This document shows positions 6,745-56,561 of a stretch of 64,000 nt of DNA, piece by piece. The position numbers and the translations under genes are program-made. This DNA is from Azolla caroliniana (Eukaryota > Plantae > Polypodiophyta). The stretch covers positions 11,098,001-11,162,000 of the forward strand of contig JBHGNT010000008.1 in NCBI GenBank assembly GCA_043228905.1, written 5' to 3'. Each line of letters starts with the position of its first letter. Position 1 is the first letter of the stretch. The notes below the pieces were generated by a model, which ran no database searches, was not told the origin of the DNA, and saw only the letters and a program-made list of their open reading frames with translations.

Positions 6745-7023
6745 TGACGCGAAATATGTGGAATAATCTTCGGCAACAACCGAAGCGTAGATCACTTGAT
6801 GCCAATCAAACACAGAAGAAATGGGAATGGAGGTAAGTAAACAAATAGAAAAGAGAATACACTGAATGCTAACGTGGAAAACCCTGAGAGGGAAAAACCA
6901 CGGGAGTCCAAGACTCCAAACTATCACTATGTCAAGGAGTACAACAGGGAGCTCAGAGGCAATGACCTCTTGCTCACAATCTTTGCCTAGCGGCGGTTAC
7001 AATAGAGACACGATCTCTGTATA

Positions 7024-7075
<52 letters not shown>

Positions 7076-11085: not shown

Positions 11086-11393
11086 AGAAGGTTGATGAAA
11101 AAATATATATTATGTGAAAAGAATATACAAAGATAGCTAGGAGGCTTAAGACTGGCGTTGAACCGATTTGGTTCTCAATAATGCCATGTGCCTCTTTTTA
11201 TAGTGGCTTAGGAATACTCTTGACATTTCTAGAATGTTCTAGAGAAACCTAGAATATACATGGATTTTCTAAGTTAAATGGAAATAATATTCTACATATT
11301 ACAAAGAATAGCTTAATGGTAAGGCTTTTGCCCATGTGCCACAAGGTTAAGGGTTCAAATCCTTTTGAAGCCATACCATTCTATATCATGACA

Positions 11394-12372: not shown

Positions 12373-12420
12373 TGTCGAGACTTGAGAATAGGAGAGAGAA
12401 AGATAAGATGATGATAGAAG

Positions 12421-12465
<45 letters not shown>

Positions 12466-12600
12466 ACTAGAAATGGAAAGAGAGTTTATATTATAAGAGA
12501 GCAAGGATTACAAAGAGTAGGCTAAGGGGCTACAAACTGGTGTTGAACCGAATGAGTTGTGATGAATGAATAGACACATATTTATAAGTCTTTATCGAGT

Positions 12601-12690
12601 ATTCTAGAATGTTCTAGAATATTTTAGATATTTATGATATTTAATATAATCATGGAATATCCTAGAATGTTCTAGAATACTCTAAATATC
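12601..12690. promoter_or_regulatory. Heat-shock-element array upstream of the LTR TATA box (also at 16947-17030 and 11212-11244)
   Basis: aTTCtaGAAtgTTCtaGAAt is four perfect inverted nGAAn units, starting 15 bp upstream of TATAAATA (12579-12586, - strand). Confidence 0.7.
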
Positions 12691-12814
12691 TGTAATAACT
12701 AATAATACATTTATTATAACTATATATCATATATGTTATTATAATAGTTAAAGGTCTAACATATAGACCAAGAAGTCTTGGGCTCGAATCCTTGTAAGGC
12801 GAAAATGTATGTCT

Positions 12815-15530
12815 TCATGACATTATCCCCCCTTTTCGACGACGAGTTCCACGAGTTGGAAGACAAGATTTCGCACTTGGCTTCTGGGGATATTTGTTGT
12901 GAAACGCAACAACCATTTTGGAGGCATTAGCAAGATTATCGAGAGGTTCCCATGTTTGATCACTAGGTGTATAACCTAACCAGTCAACCAGATAATACAA
13001 ATTGTTGCGAACAATCTTGGAGTCGAGAATGGCAACAACTTCATATTCGGAGCCATCCGAAACTTCCATTGGAGGTGGGGGAGATGTAAGACAGCCAGGA
13101 ATAGAGCTGGTTGTGTACGGCTCCAAAAGTGAAACATGGAAGACCGGGTGAAGATGCATATGAGGGGGAAGATCAAGGAGAAATGCCACATCATTGATCT
13201 TACCATATATCACATATGGGCCAAAACGTTGATAATCCAATTTGCAGCAAGGTCGGGTTGTTTTAATGTGACCTTGTAAAAGCCATACCCGATCTCCCAC
13301 TTGAAACATAGTCAATGACGGTCGGCAACCTTCTTTTGAGTGTTTTGAGCATCACATAAATGGTGCAAAAGGATATCTTGAACTTCTTGGAGTCGGGTGA
13401 GCTGATCTTCAGCAGTTGGGTTTGTCTGGAGTTTGAGATGTTCAAGCATAGTCCAATGAGGATGGTACCCAATATTTGCCAAAAATGGGGAATATCCAGT
13501 AGAAGAATGTTCTGAGTTGTTGTAAGCAAATTCCGCCAAATGTAATAGATCAACCCAATTATCTTCTTGATAGTTGACAAAACAACGAAGATATTGTTGT
13601 ACTACTTGGTTGGTGCGCTCACTCTGTCCGTTAGTTTCTGGATGGTAGCCAGAAGAGAGTTTGCAAGAAGTATGTAAGAGTTTGAACATGTGCCGCCAAA
13701 ATTTTGAGATGAACTGGGGACCCCGATCACTGATAATATCATCAGGAAGACCATGATGCAGAAACACCTCTCACATGAGTAACTCGGCTGTCTCTTGGCT
13801 CGTGATGGCCTTTGTGCAGGGAAGGAAATGTGTCATCTTAGTAAAACGATCTACTACCGTGAGAATAGAATCAAAAGCTTTGGAAGGTGGTAGATCCGTA
13901 ATGAAGTCCAATGAAATAGATTTCCATGGACTCTTAGGAATAGGCATTGGCTATTATAAGCCATATGGATGATGTCGAGGTTTTTTGGATCTGCAACATG
14001 TATCACAACTACGAATATAATCCGTAACAAAATGGTGAAGTTGTGGCCACCAATACCTTCGAGAAATTAATGCCAAAGTCTTCTGGAAGCCGAAATGTCC
14101 AGCCATTGGTGTGTCATGACATTGTTGCAAGATTTGGAGTCGAGAAGGACCATCAGGCACATATAAGAGATTTTGTAGAAAATGTAAACCATCATGCCAA
14201 TTGAACTGGTTGTAGTCTTGACGAGGATTTTGAGATTGTGAACAAGAAACACGATCTGGGATAATATGGTTCAGAATAACTTGGGCAAATTTATCAGTCT
14301 CAATATGCTCCCGAATGGAGTCCAGAAGACTTGAACCCCCGGGTGTGTCTATAGCATGAAATGCCATTAGTCGTAGACGTTCAGGACCCAAGAGGATTTG
14401 CTTCTGACTTTCAAATGCGGCCTCACCTGGTTGAAGTTCCATATATGAATGTCGAGATAAAGCATCTACTTTTCCTTGTTGTATCCTAGGGTGATATAGA
14501 ATTACAAAATCAAAACGAGTTAAGAACTGCGCCCAACGAGCTTGTCGGCGACTCAAGACTCGAGCACTTTGGAAGTACGTTAGATTTTTGTGATCATTAT
14601 AGACAATGATTTGTTGAGACGAACCCTCCAAAAAATGACGCCATTGTTGAAAAGAATCCACAATGGCAAGAATCTCTTTTTTGTGAATCTCATAGTTGAT
14701 TTTTTCCGCTTCGAATTTCCGTGAATGAAAAGCCACAGGGTGTAGTTGGACGTCATTGCTAACCTGGGATAATATGTTTCCTAGTGTGACGTCAGATGCA
14801 TCAGTTTCAAGTATAAAGCGCTTCAGTGGATCAACATGCATCAAAATTGGTGCGGATGTAAATGCTTGCTTTAATCCTTCAACTACAGAGTTTGCATTTA
14901 TACTCCAGACAAATGGTCGATTCTTCTGTGTTAGTTGAGTGAGGGGCAATACAATATTTGAATAATCTTTGATGAACTTGCGATAAAAGTTTGAACCTTT
15001 CCTGGATCCATAGAGATGCCATGTGAAGAGACTATGTACCCCAAAAATTCCACTTGACGTTGGTCGAAACTACACTTCTCGAATTTTGCATAGAGACCAT
15101 ATTCACGCAACCGTTGCAAAACTTGTTGGACGTGTATATCATGATCCTCTTGAGTTTTTTAGTAGATCAAGATATCATCTAGGTAAATTATGACGAAAAT
15201 ATCGAGGAAATCTCGAAAAATGTCATTCGCCATATGTTCGAAAACAGTTGGTGCATTCGTGAGACCAAATGGCATCACTGTATACTCAAAATGGCCATAG
15301 CGAGTACAAAAAGTAGTTTTCCATTCATCCCCAGGACAAATTCAAACAAGTTTGTAAGCGCCTCAAACATCTCACTTTGTGAAATACTTAGCTCCACTGA
15401 GGCGTTCTAGAAGGCTCGAAATCAATGGTAGAGCATATCGGTTTTGAATAGTTACTTTATTCAATCCTCAATAATCCACGACCAGACGAAGCGAACCATC
15501 TTTCTTCTTAACAAAAAATATGGGTGTGCT
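12815..15530 (-). pseudogene. pol: C2 pol: RT, RNase H, integrase, chromodomain; protease and RT N-terminus deleted near 15530
   Basis: [47 protein letters not shown] and EYEVVAILDS..YLVDWLGY..TWEP motifs. Confidence 0.92.
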
Positions 15531-15599
15531 TACTCGTTTAAAACATCATCTAATTGGCTCAAGACATCAAATGTATTTTTATGACAGGGACTACTAGGC

Positions 15600-16645
15600 C
15601 TACTTGGGTTATGAGGAGGGGCAGAAATTGAGATGGAATTGTCATGAGCACTTACTTGGTTAACTTTTCGTCGTGGTTTATGTGGACAATTAACAACAAT
15701 ATGCCTAGGACCACCACAATAGAGGCATAGATGATCCGCTCACCGTCGTTGCTTTTCAACATCCGATAATGTTCCTTGACGTTGTGTTGTCTCAATTTCC
15801 GTTGGAGTAGGGCCTTCCAACACACTTTACTTTGATACTTGGGGTGGAGTTGCGACCACCGAAGCATATGTTTCTATTGGGTGGAAGAGTAACAGTTGTT
15901 GGCACGTAGAACGCCGCTCAAATAAGCGATTGTCACATCGCACAACCTGGCTTACTGCTTCAGTGAGAGATTTTGGATCATCATGGAAGGTAAGAAGTAA
16001 ATCCTTCACATCATTGTGCAGACCTTGACGAAATTGGTCCATTAATGTCGCCACGTCCCATGGAATATCACATGCTAGAAGGCGAAAATCTGTAGCATAA
16101 GCGGAAGCAGGACGATCTCCTTGTTGTAATCACCGAATTTTGTTTATTGCGGTCCTCATACTATCAGTGTCTCCAAAGTTGGCTTGGAACTCATTAATAA
16201 ACCCTTCAAAATCTCCTAATAATAGTGAGTGCTTCTCTAGGAGTGGTGCAAACCACGCTAATGCAGTACCCATTAACAAGGTATGAACTAGTCCCTCACG
16301 AGCAACATCAAGTGGGTAACAACTAGGATGCAATTTAATCACAAGCTGTACTTGATTTAAAAATCCACGAAATTGAGACCTTGTACCATCAAACTTGGTC
16401 GGCAAACTAATCTTGGGTTCCTTCGACGAGGTTTGAACTTCTGCCGCTTGTCGTTGCAATAGAGTAGTCTCCAATTGATGCACCCGTTGAGATAATTCTT
16501 CATATTGTTGTACTTTCTCAACACTTACTTGTTGTAGGTCTCCTAGTAATCTTTGATTTTCATGCTCCAGTGCCACGAATTTGGTTGTTATCATGTCGAG
16601 CTTGGAGAGAACACGCATATATTCTTGTTTGCTAACGGACTCCAT
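15600..16645 (-). pseudogene. gag: C2 gag
   Basis: ORFs 16130-16645 (PTKFDGTRSQFRGFLNQ, GTALAWF) and 15827-16054 (QFRQGL); CCHC remnant near 15690-15730. Confidence 0.85.
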
Positions 16646-17559
16646 AGTTGCGAGAGAAAATTGCTAGATTTGCTTGAATAAGGTTAAGATAAGAAAAAGA
16701 AGTTGGAGAAGAAGAAAAGAGAGACATTCAGTTCAAACTGTCGAGACTTGAGAATAGGAGAGAGAAAGATAAGATTATGATAGAAGGTAGAGAGAGAGAG
16801 AGAGAGAGAACACTAGAAATGGAAAGAGAGTTTATATTATAAGAGAGCAAGAATTACAAAGAGTAGGCTAAGGGGCTACAAACTGGTGTTGAACCGAATG
16901 AGTTGTGATGAATGAATAGACACCTATTTATAGGTCCTTATCGAGTATTCTAGAATGTTCTAGAATATTTTAGATATTTATGATATTTAATATAACCATG
17001 GAATATCCTAGAATGTTCTAGAATACTCTAAATATCTGTAATAACTAATAGTACATTTATTATAACTATACATCATATATGTTATTATAATGGTTAAAGG
17101 TCTAACATATAGACCAAGACGTCTTGGGCTCGAATCCTTGTAAGGCCAAAATGTTTGTCTTCATGATAGTGGCCATAAAAACGCATGCTTACAATCCACT
17201 ATTACTCAAATGGGACATTCTTGTTTCAACAAAGCATGATAGTCCACTACAGGGGATCATTGCATTACATGCACTAATCATTTATCAAAAAACACTAGAA
17301 CTTTGATGTTCAAGGGAATGAAATACTACATCATAAAACCCTTGCGGTCCTGCAAATAAATCCGAGTTCACACAATTTAGTGACACGATTATCTTTAAGC
17401 ATTGGGAGTTTCTTGGTAAAAAATAATATAGCCGCACAATTATAGAATACATCAAAAGATTGCAACACTACCTTAGCATCAACTTCCACATCATGCACAT
17501 CTTCATCAATGCATTCTTTTGGTGCATTTTCATTTTCTTCCACAATATCAGACAACAAG

Positions 17560-19618: not shown

Positions 19619-19899
19619 CAATGTGTTACCGATTAGGAACACGGTCTTCAGTCAGTCCTTCGACCTAGACCTCAAGGTGACTGCGTAGCCCTGAATGGTA
19701 CCGTTGCGTCGTAATGGGATAACTCTCTGTATCCTAGTAGCGTATACGAGAGATGGCTACAACCGAACTCCCTAGACAGTGCACTCGTCATAGTGCTCGC
19801 ACTTATGCCTACGCTTCTTCCGATTACAATGATTACAATACGCCACCAAGAATCACAGACACACAATAGATTAACCACAAATATACACAGGACAGGGTA

Positions 19900-22800
19900 T
19901 CAAAGAAGATAACACTCTATTAAGATACGCTCTATGCACCAAAATTTACACGCAGCCTCTATCACAGGATTTCTGCCCTTTATATACGCAGGGTCTTTCA
20001 GCTGTTCACGCTTCCCGAGTGAACCATTTACATGCGTTACAATTTTACTATATTCTATATTTCTGCGGTCTTGTCCGTCAGTTACTATTCTGGTGGACAA
20101 CACCTGGCACGCCTGTGGGACAGTGCCATGGCACGTCGGACCCACCCCTTTAATCTTCCTCCAAAATGGCCCTGGTGTTGGTTCTGCTCCGGTCTCCGGG
20201 TCCAGGGACGGAGTAGTGCCCGTAGGCGCGTCATTGCGTGGTTCTACTATTTTCTCAAGAGGGCTTCCCATGGTGTCGATGGCTTCTATTGTGGGTGGTT
20301 CGGGCTCGGCTGGCTTATCTTGTGCTATTGTGGTTGGTTCAGCCGTTGGCGGGCTTGCGGTAGGTCGACGTTCTGTCTCGTCCGTAACTTCCTCCGTGAT
20401 GTCGCCCGTGGTCGTGTGCTCCGGTGAGTGGGGTAGGGGTTCTTCTTGGTCCGTAACTTCCTCCGTGATGTCGGTCGTACTCGTACGCTCTAGTTAGTGG
20501 GGTTCCTCTTGGTCTACGGTTTTGCTTTCTGGTATTGTAGGGGGTTCCGCTCGCCATTCCGTGCTGTCCACCGTCGTGGTAATTTCCGGTGACGTGGGCT
20601 GAGGTTCCTCTTGTTCGGCAGTATCCGGAATTGGTATCGCGATGGATTCCTCGTTTGTTCGTGTGCTGCCGGCTTGCATGATCTGGTGAAACAGGTCCTC
20701 CTGACTTTCGCCAAAATCATCTAGTAGTTGCGCAAGTTCCTCAGAGTGTTGGTTCACTAGCATAAGATAGTCTTGCGCTAGGTCCTCATGTACTGCCGCA
20801 ATGCTTTCCTCATTGAGTTTGTAGAACCCTCGGCCGTCTTTCCTTCGGTTCTCCCAGTCTGCCCTGTATGTATGCAATTCTGCCGCTTGTGCGGCCCACG
20901 CCATCCATCCTTTGTCTAGCGCCGCTTTTAATTGCGCCGTAAGCCTCTCCCGATTTGTTTGCAGAAGTATGTGCACGTTCTCAGTTATTGCTTGGCAACG
21001 GTTGCGTGCTTCTTCTACGGTTTTCTTGAGGTTTTCGATTTCTTGTTTACTAACTGCCGCCGCTTCCTCATAAGTGCTCCTCATTCTTGCCCATAGCTGA
21101 GATTCCTTCGAATGTAATTCTTCCAACTTTCCCATTTCATTGTTCAGGCGGATTTCGAGCTGATGCCTCCTCTCCTGTTCCCCAACCAACTGCTCGTCGA
21201 ACCATGCTTTCTTCTTGTCTAATAATGCCCAGAGTCCTGTAATCGCCGCTTCCAATTTTCTCACTTCCTCCAGTAGGTTCGCGTTTTCTTCTTTCATGCG
21301 GTTGTGTTGTGCTGCCTCTGCTACGAGTTCCTCTTCAAGGGTCTTCACTGCCTTTCGGCTGTTGGCCCGGATGTCTTTCTCTCTGTCCGAGGACTAGCAA
21401 GTTCGGAGCGGAGACGGTCAATCTCCGATTCCACCAGTTGCACGGCCCGTTTTGCTTTCGAGGCAATAGCGGTCTGGGCTTCAATTTCTTCTCTCAGGGC
21501 CTCAGCGGCGTGGCTTGTTGGTTGAGCTGCCTGATGCGCCATAGTCACGTTACGCTCCAACTCCACAATGCGTGCGTTGGCCTTTTGTAACTCGGCTTGG
21601 GTCAGTTTGACAGTCCTCCAGACGTTTTTAATTTTAATCGCCATATCCTTGGCGCCCATACTGACCTTCGCCAGTTCCCTATGAACTTCGACCAGGGCTG
21701 CATTTAATGGGGGTAGTTCCATCCCCATACGGAGGATACCGGCGTTCCTCTATCAGTCGACTCTGGTTAACTGATCCTCATCGTCGCTTTCCGCCATTTG
21801 TGTTAGTGCACCCTCAATCATTTGGCACTCAACGTGCTCCTCGGCCATTCGTTGTGAGACTTTTATTTGTTGCGTTGCCAAAAATTCCATGAGTTCAAAA
21901 GTGGTTCTGAATTGTAATAGTGCGCCAAACTCATGGGCCGTGTCCGGAATGTCCGAATACGTCAGGACCTCACTTTCGCCGTAAATACGCCTTTCCCCCG
22001 CTAAGACTAGGCCGTAATGAACGACCGTGGTTCCCGGATTATTTCGAAGGTGGTGTTGGGCTCCGTAGCTTTGTAGCTGTCGACCACGGTCGTCGTCTCT
22101 ATGGCCGCGAGTGTGTCTTTAACTAACCCGCGCCCATCTTTCCTGTCCAACCTCCGCCGTTTTGGCCTCAGAATTTCCTGACGTGGTTCAGCTTCTAGCT
22201 CCTGTGCAGCTTCCTCGTTTCACTCTACCCGCTCTTCCTGCATTGTTCGCGTGTTGGTCTAGGCAGATTGGGGTTCATCCTCCCACTTTGTGGTGGGCAA
22301 CTCCGCTAACCTTCGCTTCGCGGATCGTGGCGGCGGCGTGGGATGGCGGGGTTGCGGTGCCGGCAGACATCGGGGTGGGAATAGTATCGTCAGATACTGT
22401 TGTATGATAGGCCTGAGCTTTTTTCCTCCTTGATATGCGTGCAGGACTTCCCATAACGCTGGTCCTGTGATGACCCCCCAATCAACCGTACGCCCTTCAA
22501 AGGTATCAATGATGATACCTATCTTCTGCTTGGGCATCCCATACGCGTTTACATGTACGCATCCGACCTCCAACAGGAACTTGGCTATTTCGCGGAGAAT
22601 GGGGTCGGGGATCTCCTTCGTTCTATATGCCTTGGCAAACGCCGAATAAAGTCCGAAATATCTTTGCAAAGTTTCCGTAGGAGGGATTTCGAAATGCCTT
22701 TCCCCTAGTGATGACAAGTCAAGCTTCTTCCGGATGGATGTGTTGGTGACCATGTCGATATTGAGCTTCCTCGCGATGTCTAGGGCTTCAGGGTGGGGAG

Positions 22801-23076
22801 GTGCCTCGACGACTCTGATGTATCCATCCAAGTGTTTCTCCATCAGCCATCGATGCAAGGCGGCAGAAATGGGATCGGCATAGTCGGATTAGGCTCGTGG
22901 CTATTGGGTGAGGATTGTTGGCTATGGCGAACTTGAGCTCTGTGATAGGATGGAGAAGAGGGTGAGGAGGGGGAGCGATACGAGCAATGCGAGTTAGAAG
23001 GTTGGTTTCTGTGGTGTGTAGAAAATCTTCTATTTCCTTCTTTTTGTGGCCTAGGGTTCATTGGTCGGTGAGCCAT
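19900..23076 (-). pseudogene. G3 accessory 3' ORF (unknown function; coiled-coil plus acidic Pro/Thr-rich tail)
   Basis: Sense ORFs 22843-23076, 22259-22858, 21345-21728, 20494-21348 and 19900-20271 lie between the integrase and the 3' LTR; long E/K/Q/L helical segment. Confidence 0.65.
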
Positions 23077-23199: not shown

Positions 23200-23471
23200 C
23201 TTTACATTATAGTACAAGTGGGGCCTTATACTTACTCCGCGGATTTTCCGGCTTTATCCTGTTCTGCTCCCACTATCTAGTACGGGCCTGTCCAGCGGAA
23301 TCGTAATTTTCCTGGCATATGCCCCATGCATGTTTGGAAAACTAATACTGCTTTCCCAACTGTAAAATCTTTTTCAAGTGCATGCCGGTGTCAGTCCACG
23401 AATACCTTGCGCCGTCGCCGTTCCTGCTCCAAGATGGCCATGCTGCGTAACCTTGTTTCTCCTAGCACTAG
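23200..23471 (-). pseudogene. G3 integrase C-terminus (GPY/F module)
   Basis: Translates ..FTVGKAVLVF..MPGKLRFRWTGPY; joins 33870 across the B1 TSD. Confidence 0.8.
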
Positions 23472-23948
23472 TCTTGAGAGACAAGCTCAACATCGGCCGG
23501 ATCGGCTGAAGAAGCCGAGGACCGGATCGGTTGGGACCGATCGGTTAGGCCGAATGCGTAAACCGGTACGCAAATTGGTGCGTAGGTAGGGCCAGATCGG
23601 TGCGTAAACCGGGAGGCCATTAGGAAAGATATTCCGTGAGGAATATATTTGGGAGCTAGTGTAGGAGCTCTTAATGAGCATTGAAGTACGATCAGTACTT
23701 TGGTCAGTCCTTCTAGGACTTGTATAAAAGTGTTCATTGAACACACATATGTATATAGGGTGGGAAATAGAAATTGAGTACTGTTGTTGAATACAGTTCT
23801 TGTTTTTTCTCTCTCTCTCTCTCTCTGTCTCTGTCTCTCCCGCGTATACTGCGTAAGCTCAAGCTCTCCATTAAACCTGAGTTTTCTTCCTTCTGTTCGG
23901 TATTCATACTTGCTTCCGCACGTTACTTTTTGCATGGTATCAAAGCGC

Positions 23949-24257
23949 TGTTGGGATTTCGGTCCCTCCGGATGGGACGTCCGGAGATGAAGACCCCGGC
24001 TACGGAGCCGGATGATGAAGACCCCGGTTACGGAGCCGGATGATGAAGACCCCGGTTACGGAGCCGGATGACGAATGTACCCGGAGAGAGATCCGGATGC
24101 GGGGACATATTTGTGAATATGTTTGCCAAGGGCCCTTGAGGCCATATTTGTAAATAGCCCGAAAGTCATATGTGTATAAATATGACTTAGGGCAAACAGT
24201 TTTTGTTGTTGTTGCTCGTTTTCTAGTTTTTCCACTTAGAGGGAGCTAAGTGAGCAG

Positions 24258-24298
<41 letters not shown>

Positions 24299-27200
24299 GA
24301 AGAGGTCGTTGCCTCTGTGTATTACCGCCGCCTGTGGCGAAGACAGTGAGCTCAAGGTTGTTGCCTTGTAGCTTCACCATTGTACATCTCTGTTTATAGT
24401 GATAGCGGGAGTTTGAGGACTCCCGTGGTTTTTCCCGTATAGGGTTTTCCACGTTAATCCCTGTGTTATTGTGTCTTTCTCTGTATTTCCCATTTTCTGC
24501 AACAACGATTCGTGTGTTTCCTTGGTTGTGGCCGAGAGGTGAAGGTGAATCGGAGCGTCGATTCTCAACAAGTGGTATCAGAGCGAACTGCTGCAGAAAA
24601 TGGAAGGCGGCGGCAGCGGGCAGCCGGGGATGATGGTGCTGAATGCGCAGAATTACGCCGACTGGAAGATCAAGATGGAGGATCTTCTGATTGTTTGGGA
24701 CCTGTACGAACCGATTGACAGGTCGGAAATACCGAAGGGGGTACTTGAGTCGGAATGGAGGCTTCTGAACCGGAAAGCCGTTGCAACCATTCGGCAATAC
24801 GTCGACGTGAGCGTTCTACAACATGTGGCGAACGACATCAACGCATATGAGATGTGGCGGAAGCTGTCGGGCCTCTACGAGAGGAAGAATGCGTTGAACC
24901 GGACCTCCCTGATGAGGAAGATAGTGAACCTCAAGTACCGGGACGGCGAGAGTATGGTGGAACACGTAAGCACGTTCATGGGATTCGTGAACCAGCTTGC
25001 GGCGATCAAGTTCCCGTTGGAGGATGCAATGCAAGCCATCATTCTGATGTGTACATTGCCGGAAAGCTGGGAGAACTTGGTGGTGACTCTCAGCACCTCC
25101 TGCACCGAAGATAACTTGTCCCTACAAACGGTAAAGACAAGTATTTTGAACGAAGAAGCGCGTCGGAGAGATAAAGAACCGGCCTCCGACTCGAAGGCGC
25201 TGCTTACCGAATCGGAACGGGGAAGACAATGGAACCGGAGTCCGCAAAGACGGGAGAAGTCGGGGACCCGGTCGCAGTCAAGAGGAAGGCCCACATGCTT
25301 CCACTGTGGGAAGCCGGGGCACTTCCGAAAGAATTGTCGGCATTACCGAAAAGACAACGGAGCCGACGACACCGATTCGAAGAAGTCACCGGAGCGAAAC
25401 GGTGCATACCGGGGAGCCACGGACCGGAGAGGTCCGGATCGGCGAGGGCAGGACCGGAAAGGAACGACGGCACTCGCGGCAAGTGAAGAGGAGATCATGC
25501 TCATCACCGAAGAAGGTGAACTAAACATTGCCGGCGATGAGACGACCTGGGTGGTCGATTCCGGAGCATCGTTCCACCTGACCCCGGAGAGAAGATACTT
25601 CTCATCCTACACAGCCGGTGAGCATGGCTGCGTTCGGATGGGAAATGAAGGTACGTGTCGGATTGCCGGCATAGGAGACGTGTGGTTAACAACCTCGACC
25701 GGATGCAAAATGCTGCTGAAGGATGTCCGACACGTTCCGGAGGTTCGATTGAACCTGATTTCGGCCGGGAGGCTAGATGATGAAGGCTACACAGGTAGCA
25801 TCCGGAACGGCATAATGAAGTTCAGCAAGGGGAGTCTGATAGTGGCTCGGGCCCGGAAAGTTAACACGTTGTACCTGATGAATGCCCGGTTATGTCCGGA
25901 AGAGCTGAACGTGGCAGCCGACACTGCCGGTGAGCTGTGTGGCACAAGAGACTGTGCCACATGAGTGAGAAGGGGATGAAGAGGCTTGCAGATGACAACC
26001 TCATTCCAGTCAAGCATGTGCACCTGGAGAAGTGCACTGATTGCCTGGCCGGTAAACAGAACCGAACCTCCTTCCACTCAAGGCCACCGACGAGACGTAG
26101 TGTACCATTCGAGTTGGTACACACTGACGTGTGTCAAGTAGAAACGAAGTCACATGGCGGAGCCCAGTACTTCGTGACATTCATTGATGACCACAGCCGG
26201 AAGCTGTGGACGGCACCGTTGAAGACAAAGGACCAAGTATTGTCCGTCTTCAAAGAACTCCACGCGAGAGTGGAAAGAGAATCCGGCAAGAAGCTGAAAG
26301 CGATACGAGCGGATAACGGAGGAGAATACCGAGGGCAATTTGAGGAGTATTGCCGTTCAATGGGAATCCGGCTCGAGTTTACTGTGCCGAAGACGCCGGA
26401 ACTGAACGGGCTGGCCGAGAGGATGAACCGGACCATAATGGAGAGGGTCCGGAGTATGCTGGCGCATGCGAAATTACCCAAGGGGTTTTGGGCTGAGGCA
26501 ATGTCGACGGCGACATACGTGATTAACAGATCACCCTCAGTACCTTTGGACGGAGACACGCCGCAGAGAGTGTGGACCGGTAGGGAAGTGTCCTACCGGC
26601 ATCTGAAGGTGTTCGGGTGTCTCGCATACGTGCATGTGGCAAAGGACCAGAGAGGAAAGCTAGATCCAAAGACCCGGCCATGCATATTCCTCGGTTACGG
26701 CGACGACGAGTTCGGCTACCGAGTATGGGACCCGGTCGACAAGAAGATATTCAGGAGTCGAGACATCATCTTCATGGAGGACAAGACACTCGCCGACTGG
26801 GAGTCGGAGAAGAAGATGAAGAGCTCCAAGTCGACCAGTGAGGATCAACTCTACAAAGAGCAGTCCCGACCGGCAAGGGACCGGTTAGCACTCGAGGATC
26901 CGGCCGAAGTCGGTGAAGAAACAGAACCGGCCGAGGAAGATGAAACTGATACCGGAACCGGCCCTGATCCCGAAATGGATTCGGATGAAGAGGAAATGGA
27001 GGAGCCGGTTACCGAAGCTCCGGAACGGAGATATCCTCTAAGAGAGAGAAGGGCTCCCCGGAGATTTCCGGAACCAGAGCACGTGCTGCTAACCGACGAG
27101 GGGGAGCCGGAGAGCTTTGAAGAAGCGAAGCATGACACTCATAGCCGCAGGTGGTTAAGTGCCATGCAGGAGGAGATGGATTCCCTGCATGAGAACCACA

Positions 27201-29050
27201 CATATGAACTTGTGGAGTTGCCGAAAGGAAAACAGGCACTCCGTAACAAGTGGGTGTTCAAGCTGAAACCGGGAGATGCCGGAAACCCCCCGAGATACAA
27301 AGCCAGGATCGTGGTGAAGGGGTTCCAGCAGAAGAAGGGCGTCGACTTCGACGAGATATTTTCCCTGGTAGTGAAGATGACCTCCATCCGGACGGTGCTG
27401 AGCATAGCGGCAAGCATGGACCTCGAGGTAGAACAGATGGACGTGAAGACGACATTCCTTCACGGTGACCTCGAAGAAGAGATATACATGCAGCAACCGG
27501 AAGGATTCGAGAAGAAAGAGAAGGAGCACTTGGTATGCCGGTTGAAGAAGAGCCTTTATGGTTTGAAGCAGGCTCCCCGGCAGTGGTACTGGAAATTCGA
27601 CTCCTTCATGACCGACGAAGGGTACCACAAAACGCAGTCTGATCACTGCGTGTTTGTGAGGAAGTTCGAAGGAGGAGACTTTCTAATACTCCTCCTGTAC
27701 GTGGACGACATGTTGATCGTCGGACGGGACCAGGTCAAGATACGGATGCTGAAGAAAGCGCTTCACCGAACCTTCTCAATGAAGGACCTGGGTCCGGTGA
27801 GGCAAATACTAGGGATGCACATCATCCGGGACCGGAAGAAGAAGCAGTTGTGGCTGTCACAGGAGAAGTACGTGACAAAGGTGCTTCACCGGTTCAACAT
27901 GTCGGAAGCAAGACCGGTCGGGTCAACGCTCCCGACAAACTGCAAGCTGTCCAGCAAGCAAAGCCCCAAGACAAAGGCTGAGAAGGAGGACATGATGAAA
28001 GTACCATATGCCTCTGCCGTCGGGAGCTTGATGTACGCAATGGTGTGTACCCGACCGGACATAGGATATGCAGTCGGAGTGGTGAGCCGGTACATGAGCA
28101 ATCCCGGCAAAGAGCATTGGAACGCGGCCAAGTGGATACTCCGATACCTGAAGGGCACAGCAAACGTGTGCCTCCGATTCGGCTCCGGTAAACCCGAACT
28201 CGACGGCTTCACCGATTCGGATATGTCGGCTGATGCAGATACCAACCGGTCCACATCAGGGTATGTGATGACGTATGTAGGGGGAGCTGTTTCCTGGCAG
28301 TCGAGGCTGCAGAAGACGGTTGCGTTGTCAACCACGGAGGCGGAGTACATGGCGGCTGTTGAAGCCGGCAAGGAAATAATATGGATGAAGGACTTCATTA
28401 GAGAGCTCGGTATCCGGCAGGAGGAGTACCGACTCTACTGCAATAGTCAGAGTGCCATCCACCTTGCGAAGAACGCGGCCTATCACTCCCGGACGAAGCA
28501 CATCCAGCGAAGATATCACTAGATCCGGGAAAGGATAGAAGACCAGGAGTTCGTGCTGACGAAGATCCACACGGACGAGAACGGGTCGGATATGCTGACC
28601 AAGGTGCTCACACCCGACAAGCTGGAAGCATGCCGGAAGAGGATCGGATTGGAGAGACATCCCATGCCGAAGTGAAGGGGGAGTTTGTTGGGATTTCGGT
28701 CCCTCCGGATGGGACGTCCGGAGATGAAGACCCCGGCTACGGAGCCGGATGATGAAGACCCCGGTTACGGAGCCGGATGATGAAGACCCCGGTTACGGAG
28801 CCGGATGATGAAGACCCCGGCTACGGAGCCGGATGATGAAGACTCCGGTTACGGAGCCGGATGACGAATGTACCCGGAGAGAGATCCGGATGCGGGGACA
28901 TATTTGTGAATATGTTTGCCAAGGGCCCTTGAGGCCATATTTGTAAATAGCCCGAAAGTCATATGTGTATAAATATGACTTAGGGCAAACAGTTTTTGTT
29001 GTTGTTGCTCGTTTTCTAGTTTTTCCACTTAGAGGGAGCTAAGTGAGCAG

Positions 29051-29087
<37 letters not shown>

Positions 29088-29359
29088 GAAGAGGTCGTTG
29101 CCTCTGTGTATTACCGCCGCCTGTGGCGAAGACAGTGAGCTCAAGGTTGTTGCCTTGTAGCTTCACCATTGTACATCTCTGTTTATAGTGATAGTGGGAG
29201 TTTGAGGACTCCCGTGGTTTTTCCCGTATAGGGTTTTCCACGTTAATCCCTGTGTTATTGTGTCTTTCTCTGTATTTCCCATTTTCTGCAACAACGATTC
29301 GTGTGTTTCCTTGGTTGTGGCCGAGAGGTGAAGGTGAATCGGAGCGTCGATTCTCAACA
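23949..29359 (+). mobile_element. Ty1/copia element A2 (Tork/Tnt1-like), full length and young
   Basis: Near-identical LTRs 23949-24570 and 28686-29359; TSD AGCGC; PBS TGGTATCAGAGC at 24573-24584; PPT before 28686. Confidence 0.97.
24600..28675 (+). pseudogene. A2 gag-PR-INT-RT-RH polyprotein; 2-bp insertion near 25938 and TAG at 28520
   Basis: ORFs 24600-25964 (CFHCGKPGHFRKNC, WVVDSGASFH) and 25937-28522. GAGCTGTGTGG here versus GAGCTGTGG in A4. Confidence 0.95.
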
Positions 29360-29422
29360 AGCGCGAGGGTTGAGAACCTCTCTGCAGCCGACACAGCTTG
29401 ACGAAGAAGAACAAGAAGAACG

Positions 29423-37100: not shown

Positions 37101-38950
37101 CGGTGAAGGGCCCAAGAATGAGCATGCATCCGAGAGAGTGTCAACGAGTGACCGGAAACGGTGGACCGATTGAGCCTTTGAGAGGCGAAGACTCGGTGGT
37201 GAACCGAGAGTGGGAGGAACCCTCCACACCTACCCGTGAGGCATTGGCGGTCGCGGATCGAAAGGAGAACGAAGAAGCGGTGGGTGGCGGTGAGGAGTTG
37301 GAGACCGACGCGGAGGTTGTGTCTACGGCGGTAGCACGACACGAGACGCATGCAATACGGCCGGTGGAGGGCCAAGAGACAAGCATGCATACGGTGGATG
37401 GGCGACAACGATTGACCGATGATGATGGTCGGGTCAAGCCTTTGAGAGGCAAGCACGAGACGAAGGACGGCGCGGCGAAACACCAAGATCGACGACATGG
37501 GCCGAGCGCGATCAGCATGAGCGGAGAGTCGTATCTAGGAAAACGGAGGAGATGCACAGAGAACAACGGGGTACACACCGGGAAGAGAAAGTGCGGCGGT
37601 TTCCCGGAGGGCATACAAGGCCAAGCGGGCCAAGAGGGCGCAAGTCGAGGCGAGGCGATAACGAGAGCCTCGAGGGACACCGACACGGAGGTCGGGATGA
37701 TGATACACTCTACTACAAGAGAGCACGGCGAAAAAGGGGAAAGCGAAAAACGCGTGATGGGGTCATCGAAGGACCGAAGCATGAGCACGCATTCGGAGGG
37801 CAACATCGACATACGGGGAAAGCCTACGGAAGGCAAGCGCGGAGCAGAGAGAGTCGGCATGCTGGGGTGTGCGGCACGCAAAGGGCGGAATCCGGCATGC
37901 GACCGGGAGCGCATCCGTAGGATATACGAGGCGGACAAAGGAAGAGCAACCGGGTCGGCAACGGCGTTCGGGAGGACCGAACGGGGAGGAAAGCACGGGC
38001 ATCGGATACGGTGGGTCGGATGTAGTCGGTGGTTCAAGGACCCACGGTGGACGTGGCGGATCGGGTGGAGGCAACGACTCGGAGAACATCGTCGAGTGTG
38101 GCGGATCGGATGGCGCCGACGGTTCGAGACCATTCAGCGAGGATGGTGGGCCGGAAGGCGGCGGTGGTTCGTGTGGACGGGGTGGTCTTGCTCGAAGCGG
38201 AAGATAAAGCCGGGTGGGCCCACAAGGACGCTAAGGACTCGGTCGGTCGTCGTGGCCGAAAATCTCGTGTTCTCTCCCCTATGTTTTGGCACATACCGGA
38301 GGATGTGCGGTTAGGTGGGGGCGGATGTCGTGAAGATTTTCGTCCACAAGCGGAAACCCGAGCAACGAGAGCCAAAGAGTGATGTGCAATGTTGCACACG
38401 TACATAATGTATTTGTAATAGTAATAAAGGTATAAAGGTGATGTGGTTGTACGCACATCCACGCGAGAGAGAGAGAGAGAGGTACTATGCGGTACATAGG
38501 TACCTAGTTGTTTGTGAGGAGGTGGGAGTTAAGGGGCCATCAATCTCACCCTCCCCCAAATCAAGGCAAATATCCCCTTTGAATGAAAGGGGATATTTTA
38601 GTCTCACATTTGTAAGCGGTCTTCCCTCCTTGTGCTATAAAAGGAGAGAGAAGGCACCATTGTGGGGGTTGCCTATTTTGAGTGTTCGAGGTATACCACG
38701 TAGGTCGAGCGTTAGGGTTAGGGTTAGGGTTTTCGAGTAGTCGTTTGGTGCGGCCATGGCGACCACCATTTGTTGTAATCATTCACTTCTTAATAGAACT
38801 TCTTGTTGAGTATCTTGATTGCATCTTCTTCTTCTATCATAATATCATATTCGTTCTCTTCTCCTCTTGAGCTAATCTTTCTCCTCCACTCCCTAGTCCA
38901 AGACCCCCGTGGTCCCGCCCTTCTACACGCACGCGCGTAATAACGCGACA
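34189..38950 (+). mobile_element. Non-autonomous gag-only LTR element P2 (TR-GAG-like), related to G1
   Basis: LTRs 34189-34815 and 38326-38950; 4-bp TSD ACGT; tRNA-Trp PBS at 34820-34837; PPT AGGTGGGGGCGGA; no PR, RT, RH or INT motifs. Confidence 0.92.
34853..38314 (+). pseudogene. P2 single long frame: gag N-terminus plus repetitive disordered region (two in-frame stops)
   Basis: ORFs 34853-35053, 35057-36721 and 36746-38314 are in the same frame. GRFNGNEVPRFL..FPRVA..WVSFEGALLEVYG matches G1 gag GRFSGKDATSYL..FPRVE..WEEFEGRLLEKYG. Confidence 0.75.
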
Positions 38951-39904
38951 ACGTAATGTTGGGTTAGTTCGCTGATGACCGTATTCAGGAAGTGACTCCC
39001 TTGATCACTAATGAGCTCGATAGGGCAGCCGAATCGACACCAGATGTGTTCGTAAAGGAATTTCGCCGTGATTGTCGCGGTATTCTTGCGTAGTGGTTTC
39101 GCTTCTACCCACTTTGTACAGTAATCCGTGGCCACCAGGATATACTTATTGCCGGTTCGAGCGGCCACCGGGGTGAAGGGCCCCACAAAAATCTAGCCCC
39201 CACTTTTGGAAAGGATCTAGTGGCAACACTAGTTGGTGTGGCATTCTCACGACTTCCGTGGGTTGGCCCAATCGTTGACATAAATCGCATTGTCTGCAAT
39301 ATTCATACGCATCCCTTTGCATCGTCGGCCACCAAAGTCCTGCTTGCAAGATTTTCCAGGTCGTAACATTGCCCACGTAATGTCCTCGCGCCGTACTACA
39401 GTGGGCTTCGCGTAGAACTGCGGCCTTCTCATCCTACCATATTCCGCGCCTCTAGATGCCATCATTGCCTTTGTAGTATAGTATGTCTTCTAGTAAACAG
39501 AAATTTCGACTTCGTATGGCCAACCGTTTTTTCTCGTCCATCCGTAATTGGGGGGGCGGTAACCCATTGGTTAGGAAGTACGTCATTTTCATCAGTCACC
39601 GATCCGGAAAAGTTTTTTCCGTTCGTTCTACTAGAGTTGCTACACACAGAATGTCCGCATCCGGAAAGTCGTCGTCATCAGTTTGAGTCGTTTCTCCATT
39701 ATCTATTCTGCTCAAGAAATCTGCCACCACGTGTTGCGTACCCGATCGGTGCTGAATTACAAAGTCGAATTCTTGAAGCAATAGCGTCCATCTAGCCAAT
39801 TTCCCCGTCAGCGCTTGTTTCCCTACCAGATATAGCAATGCCGAATGATCCATGTGAAACATGAATTTCCGTCCTAGCTGATAAAGCTAGAACTTATTGA
39901 TGTT
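38951..39904 (-). pseudogene. G3 RNase H C-terminus and integrase N-terminus/core
   Basis: DHSALLYL..LARWTLLLQEFDF..ADFLSR, GLWWPTM..CDLCQR, KWGLDF, YILVATDYCTKWVEA and ISDQGSHF motifs. Confidence 0.92.
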
Positions 39905-52587: not shown

Positions 52588-55500
52588 ATAGCGTATCATC
52601 CGATTGTGCCATCGTATTTGTCCGAGAAACCAGTTGAGTGCTTTCGCGTTTGTCGGTGTTTTCGCGTGAGTTATCGCGGAGATTTTGTTCAGATCGACCG
52701 CTATCCCTTCCTTACTAACTATGTGGCCGAGGAGAGCCCCGCTGGTAACGCCGAAGGCGCATTTGGCGGGATTCAGGCTTAAGCGCGCAATTTGGCAATG
52801 CTCTAGGCAAAGCTGCAGGTGCGTAAAATGGTCGGTTGTTGTCCCATATACCGCAAAATCGTCTAAAAAGACTTGCATGAAGGCCGGAATATATTCCCCA
52901 AAAATCTTTGTGATTGTCCTTTGGAATGTAGTCGGCGCCATCTTTAGCCCGAACATCATCACGACTGCGACATAGACTCCCCATTCCATGACAAACGCCG
53001 TCTTCTCTTGATCGTCGTGGTGCATGCGTACTTGATTGTACCCACCGAAGCCATCTAAAAAGTTGTACATGTCATGCCCTACGACGGCATCCAGTACGCT
53101 ATTGGTAAACGGTAATGGGAATGCATCGGTTATGGTTACGACGTTCAATTTCCGGTAGTCCACGCATACACGTATTTTGCCATTTCTCTTTGGCACGACC
53201 ACTATCCGGCTTAACCATGTCACTTGTTTGACCGGTTGTATGAATCCATCCTTGAGGAGTTTGTCAATTTCTTCTTTTACGCGAGCTGCGTAGTTTGGGT
53301 TCATGCGGTATCGACGCTACTGGACCGGTTTCGCATCGGTCGCTACATTGATCTTATGTTGATAGAACTTTGGATCTAACCCCTTCATGTCCTCGTGGGA
53401 CCAGGCGAACACATCTATATACTTCCTGACTAGTGCTATCATCACGTCTCTTTGATCCGGCAATAATTCTTTTGCGATGGACAGGAATCGGGGTTCTAAC
53501 ATCGAGCCCATGTTTACTTCTTCCAGGGTTGAGGCCGTGACTCGTCGTGAAATTTCCATTTCTCTTTCGAACATTGCTCGTGCTCTGCTTAGTTCTAATA
53601 TTGACTCCGGCTTTGGTTCATAAACCTCGTCGTGGAGCATAGCGGATGTGGCATACTCCGTCGTGGTTTCAATGACGTCAATTTCGAAAAGCGGAATGAT
53701 CCGGGGGTGCTCGTCTAGGTATACTTCTAATTCTGTATCATCCACCCCAGCCAGCATATTTATATCCTCCACGTATAACGGTGTTATGCCCTTGGGTTGT
53801 GCCGCCATTTCCTCTATTGGTATGCGAACCTTGGTGCATCCGCGTCGAAAGCTGATGCAATTATGTTGCCAGCTCTGCTTGATATTCGCTGAATGAAGCC
53901 ACGGTCTACCCAGTAGCATAGGATACACTTCTAGGGCATCGAGGGCGAGAACTACCACCGAAACGTCGAAGCGATGTCCTTCCACGATAATGCCTATCTT
54001 GTGTATTAAACCCAATGGCCGTACTGAGTGAGTATCTGCCATGCGAAGCCAATTCGGGCAAGCTTCCCATTCTGAAATTCCCAGTTGTTCGCATGTCTTC
54101 GCGCTAATTACATTAACGCTAGAGCCGCCGTCGATTACGCATCCTAGGATTTCCTGACCGTGTAGTATCGGTTTAATAGCCGGATTGTGGTGATCCACCA
54201 CTATTGGTCCGGCGTTGATGTCCGTAAAACTTGCAGAGATGCTTACTCCAGGTTTGCCTGTTATACGATCCTCCACGGCATGGCGGAAGCGTGGGACTAG
54301 TTGAAGTAGCTTCTCCATGGTTAGCGTTATCTCCCTGCTAGTGCTTGCCATATGGGATCCGGAGATATTACTTCCTCCTTCGATGGCTCCACCGTGTTTG
54401 CGGACTCCTTCCGCATGCGTTCCGTATTTGCCGCGTTTGCTTTTTCAACCCATGCTTGGGTCGTCTGACGTATCTCATCTTGCACGGCCCACTCAACATT
54501 TTTTGTTAGATGTCGTGTCGTGACTTGTTGCACTTCCGCCATAATCGTATTGACGGCGGGCCCCTTGCCCTTGCGTAATGGGCATTGCGTGGGATAATGT
54601 CCGGGCCGTTGGCAAACAAAACAATGGACGTTAGATTCGCCTTTCTCGGCAACTGGTAGTGTGTGCCGATCCCCAGGTGTGACTTGCTCCTCCCGGTCCT
54701 GGTTCGTTCTTCGGAGCGTACGCGGTGGTTGTTGTTGGTCCCGGCGTGGCTCCTGGTGCCGGTCATCGTCTGAACTTTCGTCGTACCGCCGTTGGTCCCG
54801 ATACTGACGATGTTTTCCGCGAGGCCCATTGAACCTGCTGCGTTTGTTTGTTGGACGGTAATTCTCGTAGCGTCGACCCCCTTTAGTATTTCTGTGGTTG
54901 CCATGGTAGTCTTCATCCTTTGGCTAGTCTTCCTCGGAATCGTTGTTATTCCGGCAATTCCGGTAGTGCCGGTCATTGCGTGGGTTCTGATCCATATACC
55001 GGGGGTCGTTCTTCTTGCCGCCTTTTCTCATTACGTCGAGGGGAGCGCTGTGTTTCCACGCTTTGTACTGTAGGCGTGGCTCTAATCAAGATATTGTACT
55101 CGCACTGCTCGACCGTGTGTGCTTTCGAGTGACAGATTGGGTAGTGGATTCACATGTTGCACTCGACTGCGGAATGCCTAGAATTCAAGCAAATCGTGCA
55201 CTAGATTGCCTAGCGGAAGTGTCGTTCCTCGTCTTGAGGTAACGCTTGCCGTAATGAGGACATGGAAAACCGTTCTTCTTCTTCGTCCAGCTCGAGCTAT
55301 AGCACTCGTTCTATGACCATGTCGGTCGTTTCTCCTTTCACGCTAATGTTGTTAAGCGTCGTCCGTATTGGTCGTCATAGAGCTGCCAAGAATGTCTCCC
55401 GAGCTTTGTCCTCCGTCGGCCCCCGTTCTAATTTCCGTCGTAGATTTTGGAAGCGTAAACTGAAATCCACTACAGTCTCGGCTGGCAATTGTTTAATTGT

Positions 55501-55790
55501 ATAAAACTGCCCGAGGATTTCGCGTTGCGGCACCTTCTGATGAAAGAAACGCAAAAAAGCCGATTGGTGTTGGTCAAAGGTCTTGAGTGTTGGTAGATCC
55601 ATCTACGAATGCCAAAACATCGCTCTCCCATCCAAAGTTAATCTGAACTCTGTCATTTTGGACTGGTGCGCAACTTCTTCCGGAAGGCTCTACGCCATGT
55701 GATTTGCATTCCAGACATTTAGGAACAGGCGAATGTGGGTTGTGGCGTCGGTTTCGCCGTTGAAGCGGGGATACGAGAAGGCCATGTTGG
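52588..55790 (-). pseudogene. G3 gag, protease and RT
   Basis: YPRFNGETDATTH, CFVCQRPGHYPTQC, VIDGGSSVNVI, MLLGRPWL, RVCVDYRKLN, FLDGFGGYNQ and FLDDF motifs. Confidence 0.93.
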
Positions 55791-56561
55791 ACACTACGGA
55801 GGGCAGAGAAGGACCACGGTGCTTGTGTGGTGAGCTAGCTTGCTGCCTGTCACCGGGGTATTTGGTGAGCAAAAAGTCATCTTTGTGGTCCCGACTGATA
55901 TCACTGTCACTGAGGCGAGGTTTCTACCGTGTGCATGCCTCTGCCTGGCGTGTGATGGACCTTGTGATTGGTCGGTCTTGTAATTTTGGTTCTCTTGGAC
56001 GTCTGTGGCTAAACATCCATTCGTCGTTGTTCGTCTGTGAGAAGACACAGATCACCAAGCGTGCCAAAAGTGTTACCGATTAGGAACACGGTCTTCAGTC
56101 AGTCCTTCGACCTAGACCTCAAGGTGACTGCGTAGCCCCGAATGGTACCGTCGCGTCGTAATACGTAATGGGATAACTCTCCGTATCCTAGCAGCTTATA
56201 CGAGAGACGGCTACAACCGTACTCCCTAGACAGTGCACTCGTCACAATGCTCGCACTTACGCCTACGCTTCGTACGATTACAATGATTACAATACACCAC
56301 CAAGAATCACAAACACACAGTAGATTAACCATAGATATACACAAGGTATCATAGAAGATAACACTCTATTAAGATACGCTCTATGCACCAAAATTTACAC
56401 GCTGCCTCTATTAGAGGATTTCTGCCCTTTATATACGCAGGGCAGGATCTTTCAACCCTTCACGCTTCCCACGTGAACCATTTACATGCGTTACAATTTT
56501 ACTATATTCTATATTTCTGCGCTCTTGTCCGTCGGCTACTAATCTGGTGGACAACACAATG

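What the first reader, a model, noticed from the sequence alone, without database searches (positions are those of the whole stretch)
20103..20135. G3 has no polypurine tract: a tRNA-Arg 3'-end mimic (inverted second PBS) sits at the plus-strand priming site
Seen: the TATA box, gag-pol and PBS (TGGCACGCTTGGTG, 56066-56053) fix G3 on the - strand, so a PPT should abut the 3' LTR at 20103. Instead the element-sense sequence is GTCCCACAGGCGTGCCA-GG-[LTR]. On the + strand this reads TGGCACGCCTGTGGGAC (20105-20121), matching at 16 of 18 positions the tRNA-Arg PBS I recall from Tat-type elements (TGGCACGCCCAGTGGGAC), which is better than the real PBS does. The internal domain is therefore bounded by inverted PBS-like repeats. 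The 3' motif ends in CCA, can pair 11 bp with the element's own PBS, and lies in a TGGCAC..GTGCCA hairpin (20105-20128) with another TGGCACG next to it. Known: LTR elements normally prime plus-strand DNA from an RNase H-resistant PPT. Inference, three models: (a) a second tRNA-Arg anneals to minus-strand DNA and primes the plus strand; (b) the RNA's own tRNA mimic primes or circularises the genome; (c) the element can replicate from transcripts of either strand. Matching LTRs and a clean TSD show it integrated normally.
Basis: partly seen in the sequence, partly recalled or inferred. Interest (0 to 1): 0.85.

Follow-up and report, generated by a model that had tools for sequence, protein, structure and literature searches.

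The report
tRNA site replaces retrotransposon polypurine tract
A group of plant jumping genes lacks the purine-rich signal that such elements normally use to start their second DNA strand and carries in its place a conserved copy of the tail of an arginine transfer RNA, split by a small hairpin, which likely lets a host transfer RNA start the second strand as well as the first.

Summary
Confirmed, and larger than reported. G3 (19624-56556, minus strand, 5-bp TSD) is a Ty3/gypsy element without chromodomain or aRH, so it is not Tat. Its RT groups with fern sequences. No purine tract abuts its 3' LTR (10 of 20 purines). Two bases from the LTR lies a 41-nt element (20105-20145): box 1 matches tRNA positions 59-76 with one base missing, then a small hairpin, then box 2, which matches positions 49-58 (9 of 10). 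A search that used only the neighbouring protein found the same layout in 9 of the 10 related loci that reach the junction, across three family groups whose LTRs barely align. The tRNA-matching boxes keep their letters, while the hairpin keeps its shape. Best reading (0.55, inferred): a second tRNA-Arg anneals to minus-strand DNA and primes the plus strand. Main rival (0.27): the element's own RNA remnant primes it. No host tRNA was obtained; bacterial tRNA-Arg genes served as stand-ins. No experiment exists. Ten literature searches found no description. The scan has reported this motif many times on other DNA of this genome, and those notes led me to box 2.

The parts
19619..19623 (.). Target site duplication CAATG (left)
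   Evidence: same 5 nt at 56557-56561
19624..20102 (-). 3' LTR of G3 (TGTT...AACA)
   Evidence: 90.2% BLAST identity to the 5' LTR; 445 of 475 ungapped columns identical
20103..20104 (-). 2-nt spacer between the CCA and the LTR (GG in sense)
   Evidence: 2 nt in all 9 motif-bearing loci (GG, AG or TG)
20105..20121 (-). Box 1: copy of tRNA positions 59-76 ending in CCA, one base missing at the acceptor/T-stem junction; reads as a PBS on the element's minus strand
   Evidence: 15 of 17 columns invariant in 10 sequences
20123..20134 (.). Small hairpin (4-bp stem, 4-nt loop) inserted between tRNA positions 58 and 59
   Evidence: stem letters change between families while pairing is kept; the two most variable listed positions (20128, 20130) lie in the loop
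20136..20145 (-). Box 2: copy of tRNA positions 49-58 (5' half of the T arm), 9 of 10 identical
   Evidence: 8-9 of 10 in all 9 loci, 7 of 10 columns invariant against 1 of 10 in the 10 nt upstream
20146..20162 (-). Purine-rich stretch overlapping the end of the extra ORF; not conserved as a tract and not adjacent to the LTR
20150..22888 (-). Extra 3' ORF in sense orientation, broken here by stops and frameshifts; about 800 aa in relatives; no credible Pfam family
23262..23470 (-). End of integrase (GPY/F region), frameshifted; no chromodomain follows
   Evidence: translation and match to L115, L116, L123
33860..34198 (-). Integrase core, piece between nested insertions
38941..39433 (-). Integrase zinc finger and core
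   Evidence: PF17921, PF00665
39599..39886 (-). RNase H, 3' piece
   Evidence: PF17917
46240..46560 (-). RNase H, 5' piece
   Evidence: PF17919, PF17917
52582..53316 (-). Reverse transcriptase
   Evidence: PF00078, E about 1e-22
53320..54923 (-). Zinc knuckle and aspartic-protease-like region
   Evidence: translation, read by eye; no Pfam hit
55378..55602 (-). gag fragment
   Evidence: PF03732
56053..56066 (-). True primer-binding site, 14 nt, after a 4-nt spacer (56067-56070)
   Evidence: 4 related loci carry the 14-nt exact complement of the stand-in tRNA end, and a fifth contig ends inside it
56071..56556 (-). 5' LTR with TATATAAA at 56435-56428
56557..56561 (.). Target site duplication CAATG (right)

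Best explanation
This Ty3/gypsy lineage has no polypurine tract and carries, two bases before its 3' LTR, a conserved split copy of the last 28 bases of an arginine tRNA, which likely serves as a second primer site where a host tRNA would anneal to the new minus-strand DNA and start the plus strand. Shown: position, conservation, tRNA match and hairpin. Inferred steps: (1) a tRNA-Arg primes the minus strand at the 14-nt PBS as usual. (2) After strand transfer, RT copies the 3' motif and RNase H clears the RNA. (3) The exposed DNA pairs with tRNA positions 76-59 (box 1, one bulge) and 57-49 (box 2), with the small hairpin looped out at position 58, where a methylated A would break the helix anyway (recalled). 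(4) RT extends the CCA end through the 2-nt spacer into U3, which fixes the left end of the cDNA as a PPT would. (5) RNase H removes the tRNA and integrase trims the 2 nt. The bulge and hairpin would cut the RNA/DNA hybrid into pieces of 11 bp or less, which may keep RNase H from destroying the primer before it is extended (speculative).
For: Position: the CCA ends exactly 2 nt before the LTR's TG in the window and in 9 of the 10 loci that run past the extra ORF; those loci were found by the protein alone. No purine tract lies there: 9-10 of 20 purines. Pattern of conservation: across 10 sequences in three family groups (window; L115-119; L120-123), whose LTRs share at most short stretches, box 1 is invariant at 15 of 17 columns and box 2 at 7 of 10, against 1 of 10 upstream and 3 of 13 inside the LTR. 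The hairpin changes letters but keeps pairing (T-A, C-G, G-C at one pair, 1 of 500 shuffles, relatedness not controlled). Identity in the boxes with covariation in the insert is what pairing with an unchanging partner predicts. Each group departs from the tRNA box-2 sequence at a different position. The insert sits inside the T loop, which would spoil a T-loop mimic but not pairing in trans. The predicted lowest-energy complex with a whole stand-in tRNA uses both boxes and leaves the hairpin out in 5 of 5 motifs tested. Pattern hits in prokaryote genomes were mostly tRNA-Arg genes by ARAGORN (11 of the 13 calls printed; 19 loci examined). In Logan contigs the junction bin is the deepest or second deepest of 30 in 4 of 4 runs, and contigs with unlike LTR and unlike 3' flank converge on it. 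Ty1 and Ty3 also bind acceptor stem and T arm through split sites, on the RNA (PMC5371799, passages).
Against: No host tRNA sequence was obtained; the stand-ins are bacterial. The one-base deletion in box 1 is kept in all 10 sequences, and 8 of 10 carry a GAG variant that adds a mismatch to the stand-in, which weakens pairing; a matching tRNA variant was sought in viral contigs and not found. Box 2 improves predicted binding over shuffled controls clearly for only 2 of 5 motifs (0 and 3 of 60 shuffles; 17, 27 and 10 of 60 for the others, RNA parameters as proxy). The two boxes also pair with each other in cis on either strand. Family-level transitions split 3 to 2 between minus-strand-compatible and sense-compatible wobbles (my count), which is inconclusive. 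A tRNA on DNA is an RNase H substrate, and RTs extend non-PPT RNA primers poorly (own knowledge). L124 reaches an LTR without the motif. The 9 loci have neighbouring assembly numbers and may come from one host, so breadth across species is not shown. No cDNA or biochemical data exist.
Confidence: 0.55

Rival explanations
1. The element's own RNA is the primer. The motif folds as a stem-loop (the T-stem copy topped by the small hairpin) that resists RNase H, and the enzyme cuts after the CCA as it does when removing a tRNA primer, leaving a built-in tRNA-like 3' end that starts the plus strand. The motif would be a structured PPT substitute derived from a captured tRNA end.
For: The sense motif folds in cis at about -14 to -16 kcal/mol. 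Four T-stem pairs never vary. The primer end would be identical in sequence and position to that of the tRNA model. It needs no second tRNA and tolerates the deletion and the GAG variant. In L121-123 the lost fifth stem pair is offset by a new pair at the stem base.
Against: The stem shows no compensatory change in three family groups, and its fifth pair is broken in 4 of 9 distinct rows. The T-loop letters stay tRNA-like although they are unpaired in the cis fold and the loop is split by the insert. In the window the preferred sense fold is a different one.
Confidence: 0.27
2. The motif pairs with the element's own PBS to circularise or dimerise the RNA, or to gate tRNA access; plus-strand priming uses something else.
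For: About 11-12 base pairs are predicted between motif and PBS, -22 to -24 kcal/mol.
Against: The PBS pairs better with the tRNA end (-28 to -31) in 5 of 5 elements. PBS and motif do not co-vary: the GAG motif occurs with an unchanged PBS. Box 2 has no partner in the PBS. The model does not explain the fixed 2-nt distance to the LTR or supply a primer.
Confidence: 0.08
3. The real PPT is the purine-rich stretch about 45-60 nt upstream, and the motif is a passenger or a local rearrangement.
For: 15 of 17 bases at 20146-20162 are purines in sense.
Against: The stretch overlaps the acidic last codons and stop of the extra ORF, is not conserved (1 of 10 columns invariant), and is absent in L120-123. 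It would leave about 45 extra bases on the cDNA end. The motif is the conserved part in 9 of 10 loci.
Confidence: 0.05
4. The element replicates from transcripts of either strand, each using its own PBS.
For: The internal region is bounded by inverted tRNA sites.
Against: All recognised genes and the TATA box are on one strand. The two sites differ in build (14 nt with a 4-nt spacer against split 27 nt with a 2-nt spacer). A sense transcript would still lack a plus-strand primer.
Confidence: 0.03

Closest known systems
Canonical LTR retroelement priming: tRNA at the PBS, RNase H-resistant PPT before the 3' LTR (Ty3; PMC5371799 and PMC3185511, passages)
   Same: tRNA PBS after the 5' LTR; a conserved cis signal directly before the 3' LTR; TG...CA LTRs; TSD.
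   Different: The 3' signal is not purine-rich. It is a split copy of a tRNA 3' end with a hairpin.
Bipartite PBS of Ty1 and Ty3 (PMC5371799, passages)
   Same: Acceptor stem and T arm of the tRNA are matched by two separate boxes; in Ty3 one part lies in the 3' region.
   Different: Those boxes are complementary to the tRNA on the genomic RNA, serve minus-strand priming, and the PPT is retained. Here the boxes are in tRNA sense on the RNA, so they can bind tRNA only as minus-strand DNA.
Athila / OTA non-chromovirus Ty3/gypsy (PMC6317226, passages and supplement 3; ATHILAfinder 10.64898/2026.03.20.713144, passages)
   Same: No chromodomain, no aRH, 5-bp TSD, 3' extra ORF, a few bases between LTR and PBS, and an integrase end like that of the seed-plant clade in my tree (Athila label recalled).
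   Different: Athila use tRNA-Asp/Asn/Ala and have a conserved PPT junction (97% in Brassicaceae). G3 has an Arg-type PBS, no PPT, and branches with fern sequences outside the seed-plant clade.
Tat / Ogre / Retand (PMC6317226)
   Same: tRNA-Arg PBS type, 5-bp TSD, 3' extra ORF.
   Different: No aRH domain found in G3 or its closest intact relatives.
Helenus TRIMs (PMC10886601, passages)
   Same: LTR elements carrying tRNA-derived sequence.
   Different: There it lies inside the LTR as a Pol III promoter, and PBS and PPT are normal.

Membership tests
Ty3/gypsy LTR retrotransposon | Order gag-protease-RT-RNase H-integrase between direct LTRs with TSD | tested here: met
   (protease read by eye)
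Ty3/gypsy LTR retrotransposon | tRNA PBS after the 5' LTR | tested here: met
   (stand-in tRNA, not host)
Ty3/gypsy LTR retrotransposon | Polypurine tract abutting the 3' LTR | tested here: not met
   9-10 of 20 purines in 10 sequences
Tat (TatI-III, Ogre, Retand) | Additional aRH domain | tested here: not met
   No such Pfam hit in the frames scanned; RNase H to integrase gap under 200 nt; intact relatives P0129 and P0132 list none; integrase ORF ends soon after GPY in L115, L116, L123
Chromovirus | Chromodomain after integrase | tested here: not met
Athila | No aRH, no chromodomain, 5-bp TSD, extra ORF in the 3' region | tested here: met
Athila | PBS for tRNA-Asp, Asn or Ala | tested here: not met
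   The PBS matches tRNA ends that ARAGORN calls Arg and differs from the Athila PBS; anticodon in the host not determined
Athila | Conserved PPT at the internal/3' LTR junction | tested here: not met
Athila | RT-RH-INT phylogeny inside the REXdb Athila clade | tested here: inconclusive
   RT tree of 38 rows without labelled references; G3 groups 100/99 with fern and unnamed sequences, apart from seed-plant rows
Phygy / Selgy | 4-bp TSD, tRNA-Trp or Ala PBS, no extra ORF | tested here: not met
   5-bp TSD, extra ORF,
tRNA-primed plus strand (proposed) | Host tRNA attached to the 5' end of plus-strand DNA | not testable with these tools
   needs cDNA intermediates or in vitro RT
tRNA-primed plus strand (proposed) | A host tRNA whose 3' end matches both boxes | not testable with these tools
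   no genome held, no tRNA gene in the window or in L115-L129

The most novel reading that the evidence does not exclude
A widespread lineage of non-seed-plant Ty3/gypsy elements has abandoned the polypurine tract altogether and primes both DNA strands with host tRNA-Arg. The second tRNA docks on minus-strand DNA through a three-way junction that opens its whole T arm and shields it from RNase H.
Probability: 0.5. Interest if true: 0.9.

Novelty: new variant of a known kind. Interest (0 to 1): 0.8.

Why it matters
PPT priming of the plus strand is treated as general for retroviruses and LTR retrotransposons (PMC5371799, PMC3185511, passages), while known variation concerns the minus-strand primer (whole tRNA, half tRNA, self-priming; PMC6317226). 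A successful high-copy lineage without a PPT shows that the rule can be broken. It gives a natural substrate for testing how RT chooses between extending and degrading an RNA primer on DNA. Either leading mechanism would be new as far as my searches reach. Annotation pipelines that require a PPT could miss or mis-orient these elements.

Tried and rejected
No genome is held for this window, so full-length copies and host tRNAs could not be collected. Viral contigs gave nothing usable: 0 hits; 111 hits that I took for chance and did not examine one by one; one distant RT; 2 and 2 hits that are not tRNA genes. Rfam found no tRNA match at the motif. No RNA holder was listed, which says nothing about expression. 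cannot show invariance of 20103-20120: variants known near the ends of the stretch are missing from it, so positions within about 30 nt of either end were not assessed. One search lists only its 40 best-supported variant rows (154 not shown); none lies in 20095-20144. Contigs were laid by likeness to the motif, so they cannot count copies that lack it. A wobble-asymmetry test was inconclusive (3 to 2). The Tat label was rejected. Paper searches for the motif letters returned 0 papers and then 21 papers whose listed titles were unrelated (listings only). The Atlas search on the extra ORF gave scores under 0.9 only.

Full report
The element. The window is a nest of LTR retrotransposons. G3 spans 19624-56556. 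Its LTRs (19624-20102 and 56071-56556, TGTT...AACA) are 90.2% identical by BLAST and are flanked by CAATG on both sides. gag, RT, RNase H and integrase pieces lie on the minus strand in gypsy order, separated by nested insertions. A TATATAAA box reads on the minus strand in the LTR. The sense strand is therefore minus, 56071-56556 is the 5' LTR, and the PBS is 56066-56053 after a 4-nt spacer. No aRH or chromodomain was found in the frames scanned or listed for the closest intact relatives, so the Tat label fails. In an RT tree of 38 rows chosen by me from the hits, G3 groups at 100/99 with Adiantum and unnamed metagenome sequences, apart from the seed-plant rows. It is best called an Athila-like non-chromovirus of a non-seed plant; labelled references were not available. 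An extra sense ORF fills the 3' region. It is broken here, about 800 aa in relatives, and has no credible Pfam family.

The observation. Two bases past the 3' LTR the + strand reads TGGCACGCCTGTGGGAC (20105-20121). The shared 11-mer occurs only at the two junctions (2 observed, 0.02 expected). The 20 nt next to the LTR hold 10 purines, against 14-16 in 6 of 7 other elements of the window. A purine-rich stretch at 20146-20162 overlaps the end of the extra ORF and is not conserved.

Conservation within the genome. Logan contigs of four runs were laid on 19900-20400 (at most 3 samples). The bin 20104-20120 is the deepest or second deepest of 30 in each run, rivalled only by the TATA region, and contigs with unlike LTR or unlike 3' flank meet at 20095-20144. 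Depth here is a rough measure. In one search (runs X1, X2, X4, X10) the most frequent listed variants fall in the hairpin loop (20128, about 29% of depth in X1; 20130, about 11%), and the stem positions 20123, 20126 and 20134 vary at about 7%, 1% and 4%. That call did not assess positions near the ends of the stretch.

Conservation across families. Four end inside the ORF and one is interrupted by another element. Of the 10 that run on, 9 carry the motif 2 nt before an LTR and L124 does not. Integrase, extra ORF, motif and LTR lie in one orientation in L115, L116 and L123. In L116, L122 and L123 the LTR runs out into unrelated flank. In L119 the collapsed LTR leads through the PBS into gag-pol. 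The sequences fall into three groups whose LTRs share only short stretches. These loci have neighbouring assembly numbers and may stem from one host.

Anatomy. Earlier scan notes suggested a split tRNA copy, and I tested that. All ten sequences read: box 2 (10 nt), a 13-14 nt insert with a 3-4 bp hairpin, box 1 (17 nt ending in CCA), 2 nt, then TGTTG. A pattern made of a T-loop motif plus box 1 hit 19 prokaryote loci; of the 13 tRNA calls printed with this end, 11 are tRNA-Arg. Against these stand-ins box 1 equals positions 59-76 less one base and box 2 equals positions 49-58 at 9 of 10 (8 in L120), each group differing at another position (numbering from own knowledge). The true PBS of four relatives is the exact 14-nt complement of the same end, which suggests that the host has such a tRNA. 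Box 1 is invariant at 15 of 17 columns and box 2 at 7 of 10, against 1 of 10 upstream and 3 of 13 in the LTR. The hairpin instead changes on both sides at one pair (MAFFT misregisters L120-123 by one base, and relatedness is not controlled).

Mechanism. The boxes are in tRNA sense on the RNA, so a tRNA can bind them only after they are copied into minus-strand DNA. There its CCA end would point into U3 at the distance where a PPT ends. Folding predicts a three-way junction using both boxes in 5 of 5 motifs, but box 2 adds clearly to binding in only 2 of 5, because the boxes also pair in cis (RNA parameters, bacterial tRNA). Letters kept in the boxes and shape kept in the insert favour an unchanging partner in trans, and an insert within the T loop argues against a loop mimic. 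I give tRNA priming 0.55 and priming by the element's own structured RNA remnant 0.27. Sequence alone cannot separate them, because both primers end in the same bases. Pairing with the PBS (0.08), a displaced PPT (0.05) and two-way replication (0.03) fit worse.

Literature. Ten full-text searches returned no description of a tRNA copy replacing the PPT; I saw listings for most papers, and the library lacks most subscription journals. Passages read: PMC6317226 (plus supplement 3 and a search of its 5 held supplements; the per-element table was not among them and may bear on this), PMC5371799, PMC3185511, 10.64898/2026.03.20.713144 (figures and supplements not seen), PMC11963269, PMC10085805, PMC10886601, PMC3286476 and PMC2864245. 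They describe PPT priming as the rule, split PBSs on the RNA in Ty1 and Ty3, a conserved PPT in Brassicaceae Athila, and tRNA-derived promoters in Helenus.

Verdict. The feature is real, conserved across diverged families and well beyond chance. The element is a new variant of Ty3/gypsy, and its plus-strand priming would be a new route under either leading model. The scan has noted the same motif repeatedly in this genome; those notes are not independent support. Interest 0.8.

Noticed in passing
window 45418-46254: A 5' LTR, decayed PBS and gag start of a related family (65-78% identity to G3) sit inside G3's RNase H; no 3' end of it was found.
   Followed up: partly
window 20150-22888 (-); P0121-P0127: The extra 3' ORF is about 800 aa in relatives, with a conserved N-terminal domain, coiled coil and acidic tail; no credible Pfam family, weak Atlas leads to PMD and DUF1985 (0.80, 0.78). 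Its stop lies only 4-10 nt before box 2.
   Followed up: partly
L124 about 1740-1780: The extra ORF jumps to an LTR with only the last bases of the motif left, and that LTR does not align to those of L120-123: a deleted copy or a chimera.
   Followed up: partly
window 12373-17166: Gypsy element with a normal purine tract and no tRNA-type PBS after its 5' LTR, resembling self-priming Tcn1-type elements (label by resemblance only).
   Followed up: no
window 34189-38950: Young LTR element (98% LTR identity) with two long repetitive ORFs of 555 and 530 aa and no Pfam domain, probably non-autonomous.
   Followed up: no
window 23472-33869, 23949-29361, 39905-45415, 46542-52588, 58491-63827, 6745-11086: Several copia elements, many with GA microsatellites in their LTRs; four of them are nested within G3, one of those inside another.
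   Followed up: no
L138 300-374 (-): ARAGORN calls a Saccharibacteria tRNA as Asp(atc), although its acceptor and T arms equal those of the tRNA-Arg genes found with the same pattern; possibly a miscall.
   Followed up: no
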